NCBI GenBank assembly: GCA_964615305.1
Contig: CAZTNA010000007.1
Location: forward strand, 326-64,325
Length of the DNA stretch: 64,000 bases
Source: an uncultured Chitinophaga sp.
GTDB taxonomy: Bacteria > Bacteroidota > Bacteroidia > Chitinophagales > LD1
Reading direction: 5' to 3'
Of this stretch, positions 14,067 through 16,901 are shown one piece after another; the first letter of the stretch is position 1, and each line of letters opens with the position of its first letter. The position numbers were made by a program, and so were the translations under genes. Under the pieces are notes generated by a model, which was not told where the DNA came from, did not search any database, and worked only from the letters and a program-made list of their open reading frames with translations.

Positions 14067-14276
14067 TTAAAGAGTAACAAAATCAAATTTGTTGCTGTAC
14101 TTTCTCACCTTACCGTTTTTGAGTGTAACTTTTAAGTCAAGCCCTTCCCACACAGCGCTGGCCACCTCTTCGCCAACTTCCAGTGTGGTAGCAGTTGTTT
14201 TGCCGCTAAACAAGCGAACGTTTTTTCCTTTAATTTCCATTGTTCCGTACTTCGGATATTTTGCCTCCCATGCCAT
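14067..14276 (-). CDS. Small hypothetical protein (69 aa)
   Basis: Clean ORF with a non-repetitive sequence in an otherwise empty gap. No recognisable domain. Confidence 0.5.
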   Translation of the reverse strand: MAWEAKYPKYGTMEIKGKNVRLFSGKTTATTLEVGEEVASAVWEGLDLKVTLKNGKVRKYSNKFDFVTL

Positions 14277-14479: not shown

Positions 14480-16901
14480 ATGAAAAATATTTTATCTCTA
14501 CCGGTAATAATGCTTTTAGCATTAATTACAAATGCCCAAAGTAATGTAGGTATCGGAACAGCTAATCCGGTAAGTAAATTAGATGTAATAAGGTAGCGTA
14601 ACTATAGGAACCAATTATTCTGGTGTATTTGTGGCACCGGCAAATGGTGCCATCATAGAAGGAAACGTGGGAATTGGAGTATCGAACCCACAAAATAAAT
14701 TGGATATTGAAGGGGGAGCTTACTTAGGATATGAAACTAATATATCAGATTTTGGAGGCTTACTTAAGTCCGGATTTTATCAGGATGGGGGCAATGCAAT
14801 TACCGGTGATGTTCCGGACCAAAGTCACACATGGTCGCATTTAATTACAACTCGTCATGACAATACCGGCAATAATCATCAGCTACAGATTGGAGCTTCT
14901 TATAATGTAAATGATCGTTTATTTTTTAGAAAAATTGCAGCAGGAAATGTATCATCGAATCCGGCATGGAACGAAATTGCCACAAGAGGTACAAATGTAT
15001 TTACCGGCCAGCAAATTGTTGGAGGGCTAACTACCAATGGAGTTAGCCACTATCAATTTGAAGGTGCCACATATCGCAACCCGGGAGACCACACGCCAAC
15101 TCTTTTGTTGAGGGCAGATAATCCGTCACTTGGTGTCAACGGATTTCGACCTGCTTTAACTCTATATAACTTCAATGGAAATTTGAATTCAACTGTTGGT
15201 TTAGCTTTTGCATCAAATGAAGAAGCGGGTATTGGAAATACTGCAAATCTGGCCGGCATTATGGCAATCAAAGAATCAGTAGGAACGAACAATGGCTGGT
15301 GTCAAGGAGGTTTGTCATTTTTTACAAAAAATATGGGTCAGCGTATTGATGCTATGAGCATAGGCTCTACCGGGCGTATTAGTTTTTTACAACCCGAAGG
15401 TGGTGATCCTAATTTTACAGGATTAGAATCTCCGACAAGTTCAGGTGGCAGAGCTCAGGTCGTTCTTTCTTCTTCGTATAGCGACTTGGTAATAGCATCT
15501 AGTCAGCCTAATCATAACCATGGCTCTACTTTGACATTTGCCACTTACAACCCGTCCGATGCAAATGATTACAGAAAGTTTGTAGTTAACCAAGGTAACT
15601 GGGGAGACAGGAGAGGCTTTTTAGATTTTGGTTATTCAGATGCTGCAGGCAGAAGCAATCCTCACTCCAGTATAAATGGTAGCGATAATGTGTTGGTGCT
15701 TGATGGGTTTAATAAAAGAGTAGGAATCGGCACGCAAAATCCTGGTGCAAAATTAGATGTGGTTGGGGCTATATGGAATAATCAAGGTATTGATGGTTGG
15801 GGATTTAAAAACGGTTGTGTTTTGGGAACTTATGGGCAAACTAATGCAACCACATTTCCTCTGTATATCCCTACCTCTGCACAAGGGCTTACTGTAACAA
15901 ATACGAGCGATGCAGCATTCTTTGGCCTCATAAGCCGGGGAGCAAATAGCAATGATTATAACGCAGTAATAGCCTGGGGTGACGATGCTGCCGATGACCT
16001 CGAATTTAGATTTAATAATTCAACAAAAGCGAGCATAAACAGCGGAGGACAAATCACTTTAGGAAATGACAGAACTACATTTTGTCACCACAACCCATAC
16101 GGTGATGCCATTGGAGAGCCCATTGTTTCTACTGCCCGGTTAGAAGTTGGGGGATGGGACAATGGAACAAATACAGTACCGGCCATTTTACGTATTCACC
16201 AATGGGGAAGTGGGGCGGCTGAATTTTTTAAGCCACAGGGTACAGTATTGTACCTTCGCGAAACTCCGGGTGGCGGCAATACATGGTTCAATAGATTCGA
16301 AGTACAAACTTATCGAGATGAAAGAGCATGGCATGATGCTTCAGTTTCAGTAGCCATAGCCAACGGATCTGCATATTTGCCTTCCGTTGGCTTTCACTAC
16401 CCCGGTAATTATGCCCACCAAATAAGTCTGTTTAATACGCCCGGTCTTGGAGCTATAGATCAAGCCGGCACAAACGGATCTCCGTTTTACGCTCAAAGTT
16501 TTAATGGATGGAGTGATATTAATGCCAAAAAAGATGTTGCGGATTTGGGAACTAAAGACTTATTGGCTAGTCTTGATAACATTATGAAAATCCGGTCAAT
16601 CAGCTATCGTTTTAATACAGAAACGGATACAGAAGACAGCGATCCAACAACTGCTTACAGAAAGTATCCTCACATTGGCTTCGAAGCTCAATCGCTTCCA
16701 AAAGAAGTTTACAGCGAAGTGCTAAACGCTACTTCAACCAAAGAAGGTAAAGGAGTAGGGTTAGACTTTAAAGGTTACGGACTTGGCGATATGGACGGTT
16801 TGCTGGTAGCAGGTGTAAAGGCACTGAACATTAAGGTAGAGGAGCAAAACAAATTGATAGAAGATCTACGCAAGCAAATTGAAGATTTAAAGAAGAAGTA
16901 A
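14480..16901 (+). pseudogene. Secreted tail-fibre-domain protein with C-terminal peptidase S74 intramolecular chaperone domain; N-terminus separated by a 1-nt frameshift
   Basis: ATG 14480 encodes MKNILSLPVIMLLALITNAQSNVGIGTANPVSKLDVIR, then a stop at 14594. Another frame is open from 14592 (GSVTIGTNYSGVFVAPANGAIIEGNVGIG...) through 16901. The C-terminus SDINAKKDV...IGFEAQSL...coiled coil (16512-16898) is S74-like. Confidence 0.7.

What the first reader, a model, noticed from the sequence alone, without database searches (positions are those of the whole stretch)
14480..16901. Phage-tail-fibre-like protein with S74 intramolecular-chaperone domain encoded as a lone chromosomal gene with a Sec signal
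- The C-terminal 129 aa (SDINAKKDV...IRSISYRF...HIGFEAQSL... then the coiled coil LIEDLRKQIEDLKKK) match the self-cleaving chaperone domain of endosialidase and tail-spike proteins (peptidase S74). In that family, cleavage is at the Ser of the SD motif.
- The body carries three copies of the motif VGIG(T/V)xNPxxKLD(V/I), typical of trimeric fibre N-termini.
- The flanking genes are housekeeping (a YkgJ-like gene and a START-domain gene). No capsid, tail, baseplate or integrase genes are present.
- The N-terminus is a classical signal peptide, which implies a host-exported trimeric fibre. Such a protein could act as an adhesin, a bacteriocin-like receptor-binding protein or a phage decoy. This protein class is essentially unstudied in Bacteroidota.
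Basis: partly seen in the sequence, partly recalled or inferred. Interest (0 to 1): 0.6.

Follow-up and report, generated by a model that had tools for sequence, protein, structure and literature searches.

The report
Frameshifted phage-like self-cleaving surface fibre gene
This Bacteroidota gene encodes a phage-tail-fibre-like, self-cleaving fibre of a kind already described in the predator Bdellovibrio; it is one of about 25 related genes in this genome, and this copy is broken by one extra base that separates its export signal from the rest.

Summary
There is a C-terminal 129-residue S74 chaperone-protease domain with an intact SDxxxK motif (SDINAK). There are three VGIGxxNPxxKLD(V/I) motifs, a Sec-type signal peptide and housekeeping neighbours.

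Two points were missed.
- The span 14480-16901 is 2422 nt and is not one open frame. The signal peptide and the first motif form a 38-codon ORF that ends at TAG 14594-96. The 769-codon body lies in the +1 frame. Paralogues show the layout is restored by removing one base near 14588-14592.
- The gene is not lone in the genome. This 3.7-Mb genome has 13 S74 matches in 11 genes and about 25 genes with the same motif. In the genus, 39 of 40 genomes carry 1-15 S74 matches.

The genome has no phage sheath or baseplate gene. The body is a mosaic of modules. They are shared at 60-75% identity with proteins of other phyla and at 32-36% with a cyanophage tail fibre. The model of the body best matches the Bdellovibrio MAT fibre structures.

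Verdict: an ordinary, probably recently disrupted member of the MAT-like exported fibre family. This scan had already noted the class in at least 60 genomes, on other DNA.

The parts
14480..14596 (+). 38-codon ORF holding the signal peptide (14480-14536, MKNILSLPVIMLLALITNA, predicted cut before Q20) and capping motif 1 (14546-14587, VGIGTANPVSKLDV). It ends at TAG 14594-96.
   Evidence: The same layout is intact in at least 7 paralogues.
14588..14596 (+). Frameshift site, ATA-AGG-TAG. The downstream frame has TAA at 14589-91, so the two frames can be joined only within these 9 bases. The paralogue layout KLD(V/I)-x-G implies one extra base.
   Evidence: blastn finds no near-identical repeat in the genome that could have caused a chimeric join.
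14592..16901 (+). Body of the fibre: 769 sense codons, then stop TAA at 16899-16901, with no further disruption. The first start codon is GTG 14631. The public protein collection holds the gene as the 756-aa product from that GTG.
14661..15026 (+). Module A (residues 24-145), which includes capping motif 2 at 14667-14708. It is a beta-rich domain, 55-75% identical to modules in proteins of Cyanobacteria, Bacteroidota and other phyla.
15399..15767 (+). Module B (residues 270-392), ending in capping motif 3 at 15720-15761. It is the most widely shared module, at 60-75% identity.
16029..16304 (+). Module C (residues 480-571), shared at 57-68% identity with a smaller set of proteins.
16512..16898 (+). 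S74 intramolecular chaperone and autoprotease domain, 129 aa. It has the Ser-Lys motif SDINAK at 16512-16529 and a C-terminal coiled-coil helix at about 16791-16895.

Best explanation
The gene is a chromosomal member of the MAT-like family of bacterial surface fibres.

How an intact family member is expected to work (all four steps are inferred from the characterised relatives, none is shown here):
- The precursor is exported by Sec, and signal peptidase I cuts before Gln20.
- Three chains fold from the C-terminus, templated by the S74 chaperone domain, into an intertwined beta-helical fibre punctuated by VGIGxxxPxxxL capping loops.
- The Ser641/Lys646 dyad then cuts the chain at Ser641 and releases the 129-residue chaperone.
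- This leaves a fibre of about 660 residues per chain whose distal modules bind a surface ligand.

What is shown here is the domain and motif content, the family size, the mosaicism and the non-phage context.

The copy in this assembly cannot make that product, because one extra base at 14588-14592 puts the signal peptide and first capping motif out of frame with the body. The 769-codon body is otherwise intact. The disruption is therefore either very recent or a base-calling error. I rate a real mutation about 0.55, an error about 0.35 and anything programmed about 0.05.
For: S74 domain:
- The Pfam hit is just above the cut-off, and SDxxxK is present.
- S, D, K, G, A and Q are invariant across nine S74 domains of this genome.
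- The profile of those nine domains finds MYRF ICA 7dc3 (2e-14), the long tail fibre distal subunit 6f45 (2e-11), GA-1 neck appendage 3gud and the phage L-shaped tail fibre assembly 8hqz.

Family:
- The genome has 11 S74 ORFs and about 25 motif-bearing ORFs. Every one whose 5' end lies inside its contig, other than three doubtful or chance motif matches, has an in-frame signal peptide.
- 39 of 40 genomes of the genus carry 1-15 S74 matches.

MAT likeness:
- The top 13 PDB fold matches of the AF2 model of residues 20-400 are all Bdellovibrio MAT fibres, with probability 0.87-1.0.
- The MAT paper describes the same features: signal peptide, SDxxxK, capping-loop motif, and S74 and non-S74 subfamilies.

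Phage origin of the body:
- Residues 21-390 match the tail fibre protein of cyanophage S-TIM5 at 32-36% identity, E 1e-30 to 2e-34.
- The best BFVD fold match is an S-TIM5 virion protein at 2.6e-15. PHROG 1980 (tail fibre) matches at 5e-6.

Frameshift.

Not phage or tailocin.
Against: - The Pfam S74 score is marginal for this protein on its own.
- The full-length AF2 model is poor (mean pLDDT 51), and the Foldseek E-values against MAT structures are weak (2e-3 to 0.27).
- The roughly 130-aa beta-rich domain that follows the signal peptide in all 21 Bdellovibrio MATs could not be tested. Here a capping motif follows the signal peptide directly.
- Trimerisation, cleavage, surface display and ligand are all untested. 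No route across the outer membrane is known, and the protein has no T9SS C-terminal domain.
Confidence: 0.78

Rival explanations
1. The frameshift is a consensus or base-calling error. The real gene is one intact ORF of about 806 codons that encodes a functional exported fibre.
For: - The 769-codon body has no other defect.
- Removing one base restores a layout that is collinear without gaps with paralogues.
- Another frameshifted gene was noted in this assembly by an earlier agent (e1-5037670).
Against: - The site is not a homopolymer run; the longest run there is AA or GG.
- The assembly scores 99.6% complete, which argues against frequent indel errors.
- No intact version exists in the protein collection that was searched. 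The cluster has one member on one contig.
Confidence: 0.35
2. The frameshift is used. It is either a programmed +1 ribosomal frameshift or a phase-variable switch that controls whether the fibre is exported.
For: The two frames can be joined only within a 9-nt window that holds an AGG codon followed by a TAG stop. This superficially resembles shift sites that depend on a rare codon or a stop.
Against: - No tRNA re-pairing is possible: neither AUA to UAA nor AGG to GGU pairs.
- There is no repeat tract for slipped-strand variation.
- Every other family member whose 5' end lies inside its contig has the signal peptide in frame.
- No orthologue exists that could show conservation of the site.
Confidence: 0.05
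3. The gene is a leftover tail fibre of a degraded prophage, tailocin or extracellular contractile injection system.
For: - The body and the S74 domain are homologous to phage tail fibres.
- S74 fibres occur in eCIS loci of Bacteroidota.
Against: - The twenty neighbouring genes tested are housekeeping or of unknown function, with no phage family.
- The whole genome has no sheath or Baseplate_J match.
- The family carries Sec signal peptides, which does not fit assembly on a cytoplasmic tail.
- GC content matches the neighbouring genes.
Confidence: 0.03

Closest known systems
Bdellovibrio bacteriovorus mosaic adhesive trimer (MAT) fibres, S74 subgroup, e.g. Bd3182 (Caulton et al. 2024, PMC10769870)
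   Same: - Host-encoded, with a signal peptide and a C-terminal S74 domain carrying SDxxxK.
- The capping-loop motif has the same G-small-x-x-P-x-x-x-L core.
- The genome holds a multi-gene repertoire with S74 and non-S74 termini: 13+8 in Bdellovibrio, 11 plus about 14 here.
- The tips are mosaic.
- MAT structures are the best PDB fold matches.
   Different: - The phylum differs, and nothing here shows a predatory lifestyle.
- The signal peptide is followed directly by a capping motif, whereas all 21 Bdellovibrio MATs have a roughly 130-aa beta-rich domain there. This could not be tested.
- The motif has one extra residue (V-G-I-G against V-G-G/N).
- This copy is frameshifted.
Phage tail fibres and spikes with a C-terminal intramolecular chaperone (K1F endosialidase, phage L-shaped tail fibre 8hqz, long tail fibre distal subunit 6f45, GA-1 neck appendage 3gud)
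   Same: They share the S74 domain with its Ser-Lys dyad and a trimeric beta-helical body. The profile of this genome's S74 domains finds these chains at 2e-11 to 5e-8.
   Different: The phage proteins have no signal peptide, attach to a virion and sit among tail genes.
Cyanophage S-TIM5 tail fibre protein gp126 (NC_019516.2, 76754-82114)
   Same: Modules A to B (residues 21-390) are collinear with it at 32% identity, E 1e-30. An S-TIM5 virion protein is the best BFVD fold match.
   Different: It is a 1786-aa virion protein in a myovirus genome, and only the middle part is shared.
eCIS tail fibres carrying Peptidase_S74 (Geller et al. 2021, PMC8213781; eCIS receptor-binding-domain catalogue 2026, PMC12923769, e.g. 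Microscilla marina)
   Same: These are S74-terminated fibres encoded by Bacteroidota chromosomes.
   Different: They have baseplate-attachment N-termini and lie in eCIS operons. This genome has no sheath or baseplate gene, and its family has signal peptides.
MYRF intramolecular chaperone autoprocessing (ICA) domain (PDB 7dc3)
   Same: It is the best PDB sequence match of the family's S74 profile, at 2e-14.
   Different: It is a eukaryotic membrane-bound transcription factor. Only the self-cleaving trimerisation module is shared.

Membership tests
Peptidase S74 / intramolecular chaperone (ICA) domain | Match to Pfam PF13884 at or above the gathering score | tested here: met
   22.2 bits against a cut-off of 22, which is marginal. 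The six-frame search gives 26.9 bits. The closest homologue subgroup (P0131, P0132, P0006) has the same divergent form.
Peptidase S74 / intramolecular chaperone (ICA) domain | Catalytic Ser-Lys dyad in an SDxxxK motif | tested here: met
   SDINAK at residues 641-646. S, D and K are invariant in nine S74 domains of this genome.
Peptidase S74 / intramolecular chaperone (ICA) domain | Homology to solved ICA domains, with a C-terminal helical coiled coil | tested here: met
   The family profile finds 7dc3, 6f45, 8jov, 3gud and 8hqz. AF2 predicts a helix at 734-768 with pLDDT 76-95. The single sequence alone found nothing in the PDB.
Peptidase S74 / intramolecular chaperone (ICA) domain | Trimer-dependent autoproteolysis at the Ser | not testable with these tools
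   This needs expression of wild-type and Ser641Ala fragments.
MAT (mosaic adhesive trimer) superfamily | N-terminal Sec signal peptide | tested here: inconclusive
   A good signal peptide is present but out of frame in this assembly. It is in frame in every other family member whose 5' end lies inside its contig.
MAT (mosaic adhesive trimer) superfamily | Conserved beta-rich domain of about 130 aa directly after the signal peptide | not testable with these tools
   No sequence or structure of that domain was at hand. Here a capping motif follows the signal peptide directly.
MAT (mosaic adhesive trimer) superfamily | Capping-loop motif V-G-G/N-small-x-x-P-x-x-x-L on a trimeric beta-helix or prism | tested here: met
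   There are three copies of VGIG(T/V)xNPxxKLD(V/I). The core G-small-x-x-P-x-x-x-L has identical spacing, and one extra residue precedes it. The top 13 PDB fold matches are MAT fibres, at weak E-values.
MAT (mosaic adhesive trimer) superfamily | Multi-paralogue mosaic repertoire with S74 and non-S74 termini | tested here: met
   11 S74 genes and about 14 non-S74 motif-bearing genes. Every segment of the protein recurs in other architectures.
MAT (mosaic adhesive trimer) superfamily | Surface display and ligand binding | not testable with these tools
   No expression or proteome data.
Prophage, tailocin or eCIS tail fibre | Linked tail, baseplate or sheath genes | tested here: not met
   The neighbouring genes tested are housekeeping or of unknown function, with no phage family. 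The genome has no Phage_sheath_1 or Baseplate_J match. The Phage_T4_gp19 search was uninformative because its controls were silent.

The most novel reading that the evidence does not exclude
The genus keeps a fast-evolving repertoire of Sec-exported fibres: 1-15 S74 genes in each of 39 of 40 species sampled, and about 25 family genes in this genome. At least seven paralogues here share an almost constant N-terminal 'address', made of the signal peptide plus QSNVGIGTxxPxxKL. Their bodies are assembled from modules that also circulate in cyanophage tail fibres and in non-exported fibres of Cyanobacteria and other phyla. If so, phage-type receptor-binding modules would be a general cell-surface recognition system of environmental Bacteroidota, for adhesion, capture of partners or prey, or phage decoys. 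These fibres would reach the surface by an unknown route across the outer membrane. Copies such as this one would be switched off by simple mutation as the repertoire turns over.
Probability: 0.3. Interest if true: 0.5.

Novelty: new member of a known kind. Interest (0 to 1): 0.25.

Why it matters
On its own the gene matters little. It is a single, apparently disrupted copy of a family that public annotation already names 'tail fiber domain-containing protein'. The family has a characterised counterpart in the Bdellovibrio MAT fibres, and this scan has met it many times.

The family as a whole is of moderate interest.
- It shows phage receptor-binding modules reused as exported host proteins on a large scale in Bacteroidota.
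- Modules are shared across phyla.
- It is not known how a Sec-exported fibre without a T9SS signal crosses the outer membrane, or what it binds.

For annotation, the useful outcome is practical. The locus should be recorded as a frameshifted gene, either a pseudogene or a sequencing error. It should not be recorded as a 756-aa cytoplasmic protein starting at GTG, nor as an intact 806-aa precursor.

Tried and rejected
- An exact-pattern scan of metagenome contigs across the frameshift site, allowing 0-2 bases at the site, found nothing.
- NCBIfam gave no family. The single sequence against PDB sequences gave nothing. Peptide-pattern search of IMG/VR gave nothing.
- The full-length AF2 model was too poor to use (pLDDT 51). 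A second model of residues 20-400 was usable only for modules A and B.
- I looked for an orthologue and for conserved synteny to date the frameshift. There is no full-length orthologue in 24 genomes of the genus. The START gene is conserved in 38 of 39 genomes, but in the 14 relatives examined it is preceded by other genes and no fibre, mostly by a gene of about 320 aa. The locus is therefore species-specific, and no dN/dS or ancestral state could be obtained.
- Misassembly through paralogous repeats was rejected. The best other match to the 5' region is 82% over 60 nt.
- Programmed frameshifting was rejected, because the 9-nt join window allows no tRNA re-pairing.
- Earlier agents reported small T9SS-tagged partners next to such fibres. 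Here only 1 of 11 S74 genes has one, at C3:186073-186573, and the window gene has none.
- PF26696 is listed for several homologues but is absent from the local Pfam copy, so I could not identify it.

Full report
**Observation**

The ORF scan lists a 756-codon ORF, 14631-16901 (+), that starts at GTG. It lists no ORF starting at 14480.
- Reading the sequence shows that ATG 14480 opens only 38 codons: MKNILSLPVIMLLALITNAQSNVGIGTANPVSKLDVIR, then TAG at 14594-96.
- The long frame is offset by +1. It is open from 14592, after TAA at 14589-91, to TAA at 16899-16901. That is 769 codons.
- The two frames can be joined only within 14588-14596.

- Pfam Peptidase_S74 matches residues 641-703 at 22.2 bits against a cut-off of 22.
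- SDINAK, an SDxxxK motif, starts at residue 641, so the chaperone part is exactly 129 aa.
- The three VGIG(T/V)xNPxxKLD(V/I) motifs are present.
- The signal peptide has a short basic n-region, a 13-residue hydrophobic core and a T-N-A|Q cleavage site.
- The twenty neighbouring genes tested by Pfam are Maf, UbiA, DUF2520, PGI, YkuD and CxxCxxCC on one side, with four upstream ORFs giving no family or only MORN or zinc-ribbon matches. On the other side they are START, DUF4412, PIG-L, PhoU_div, PHO4, LysM, NfeD, a TPP enzyme, enoyl-CoA hydratase and OMP decarboxylase. A NUDIX-like and a cystathionine-beta-synthase-like gene upstream were recognised by eye only.
- None is a phage gene.

**The frameshift**

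Seven paralogues in the same genome begin MKK..LL...AQSNVGI(G/S)..xPxxKL. In five of them KLD(V/I), one residue and a G follow.
- One paralogue, C2:114028-117855, continues KLDVKGNLTVGNGYSGTAAPTNGAIIEGQVGIG. This is collinear without gaps with the window's KLDVI|GSVTIGTNYSGVFVAPANGAIIEGNVGIG once a single base is removed.
- The full-length homologue P0006 and P0013 also have the signal peptide in frame.
- The lesion is therefore one extra base. The alternative of two missing bases is less parsimonious.
- The site is not a homopolymer, and there is no repeat tract.
- No other part of the genome is similar enough to have caused a chimeric join; the best match is 82% over 60 nt.
- No tRNA re-pairing would allow a programmed +1 shift.
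- The body has no further defect over 769 codons, so the disruption is recent or an artefact.

I could not decide between these. An exact-pattern scan of metagenome contigs found no second copy. The public protein collection holds only the 756-aa version, from this one contig.

**Not a lone gene**

- A six-frame search of the 3.68-Mb, 99.6%-complete genome gives 13 Peptidase_S74 matches in 11 ORFs. Two of those ORFs carry two S74 domains each.
- A motif scan finds 29 ORFs with the capping-type motif. About 25 are credible family members, 11 of them ending in S74 and the rest in other domains.
- Every credible member whose 5' end lies inside its contig has an in-frame signal peptide, except the window gene.
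- Several members lie at contig ends and contain collagen-like repeats, so the true number may be higher.
- In the genus, 39 of 40 genomes carry 1-15 S74 matches.
- There is no full-length orthologue in 24 genomes of the genus; only single modules match.
- In the 14 relatives examined, the conserved START gene is preceded by other genes and no fibre, mostly by a gene of about 320 aa. The gene therefore sits at a species-specific junction.

**What the protein is made of**

Homologues from the 5.8-billion-sequence collection align piecewise.
- Residues 24-145, 270-392 and 480-571 each recur at 55-75% identity inside proteins with otherwise different architectures.
- These proteins come from Cyanobacteria (Phormidium, Microcystis, Nostoc), Bacteroidota, Deltaproteobacteria, Competibacteraceae and Patescibacteria.
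- Only P0006 (844 aa, 34% identity) is collinear over the whole length.
- The exhaustive representative search gives 1381 clusters at E<=1e-3 and 197 at E<=1e-30. It adds further modules at residues 137-265 and 587-766.
- Some carriers have signal peptides. Others have non-secretory N-termini, for example a DUF6519-type head.
- Residues 21-390 also match the annotated tail fibre protein of cyanomyophage S-TIM5 and its relatives at 32-36% identity, E 1e-30 to 2e-34.
- PHROG 1980 (tail fibre) matches at 5e-6.

**Structure**

- The full-length AF2 model is poor, with mean pLDDT 51. Only the S74 part and part of module A exceed 70.
- A model of residues 20-400 has pLDDT 75-95 over modules A and B.
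- Its 13 best PDB matches are all Bdellovibrio MAT fibre structures (Bd1334, Bd2133, Bd2439, Bd3182). Foldseek probability is 0.87-1.0, but E-values are weak at 2e-3 to 0.27. T4 gp34 and K1F endosialidase follow.
- Against viral models the best match is an S-TIM5 virion protein at 2.6e-15. Several phage 'intramolecular chaperone auto-processing domain' proteins are also found.

**S74 membership**

- An alignment of nine S74 domains from this genome, with the window protein first, has S, D, K, G, A and Q invariant.
- As a profile it finds MYRF ICA (7dc3, 2e-14), a long tail fibre distal subunit (6f45), 8jov, the GA-1 neck appendage (3gud) and a phage L-shaped tail fibre assembly (8hqz).
- The window copy is a divergent but complete member of the domain family.

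**Comparison with what is known**

Caulton et al. 2024 (PMC10769870) describe 21 Bdellovibrio MAT fibres.
- All 21 have a signal peptide, and 13 end in S74 with SDxxxK.
- Capping loops have the consensus V-G-G/N-small-x-x-P-x-x-x-L.
- Self-cleavage is abolished by Ser-to-Ala substitution.
- The fibres localise to the cell surface, and their tips are mosaic.
- Supplementary Table S3 of that paper already lists FCB-group (Bacteroidota) members.

The window gene fits this kind. Two differences remain: a capping motif follows the signal peptide directly, and I could not test the MAT N-terminal domain of about 130 aa.

A prophage, tailocin or eCIS origin is rejected. There are no linked tail genes. 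The genome has no sheath or Baseplate_J match. The family carries signal peptides.

**Mechanism (inferred)**

The steps are Sec export and cleavage before Gln20, C-terminal nucleation of a trimer by S74, and cleavage at Ser641. This releases a fibre of about 660 residues per chain that binds a surface ligand through its distal modules. The route across the outer membrane is unknown. The genome has more than 150 T9SS C-terminal-domain proteins, but this gene has no such domain and no T9SS-tagged neighbour.

**Earlier notes of this scan**

The class had been noted in at least 60 genomes, and several agents reached the MAT comparison. I had reached it independently before looking. Their lead of a small T9SS partner holds here for only 1 of 11 S74 genes. 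Another frameshifted gene was reported in this genome.

**Verdict**

This is an ordinary, apparently disrupted member of a known family. Interest is 0.25.

Noticed in passing
own genome C1:164911-168474 (-) and C2:391741-394692 (-), outside the window: Two family proteins (1187 and 983 aa) each carry two S74 domains, with SDxxxK at 597 and 947, and at 473 and 823. The C1 protein ends in a T9SS-like sorting tail and is preceded by a 323-aa T9SS-CTD protein. If the internal S74 domain cleaves, the protein would cut itself into pieces.
   Followed up: no
own genome C3:186073-186573 (+), outside the window: A protein of about 160 aa with a signal peptide and a T9SS C-terminal domain (motif TVGE...TQGFQQ) starts one base after the stop of S74 fibre gene C3:184504-186072. 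Only two such small proteins exist in the genome, so this pairing is not general here.
   Followed up: partly
own genome contig ends C2:3-6074, C26:2-2329, C13:1-675, C48:3-2183: Family genes lie at contig ends, three of them (C2, C26, C13) with collagen-like Gly-X-Y repeats. The family breaks the assembly, so its copy number is probably underestimated.
   Followed up: no
homologues P0010, P0040, P0087, P0036, P0045, P0107 (Cyanobacteria, Competibacteraceae): The same body modules, at 55-70% identity, sit behind non-secretory N-termini (RPRYFDGQYLSVDDF-type and NSIPTESNFADLID-type heads). The N-terminal head may decide whether a fibre goes onto a particle or is exported.
   Followed up: partly
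L072 (MAG labelled uncultured Chitinophaga sp., contig CAZBPG010000011.1), 760-13234: Three large fibre genes lie in tandem (1193, 1552 and 1358 aa). The second has a signal peptide, five capping motifs and an S74 tail very like the window's (DMDGLLVAGVKAL).
   Followed up: partly
window 14067-14276 (-): A 69-aa ORF lies divergent from the fibre gene. It has no Pfam match and no signal peptide.
   Followed up: no
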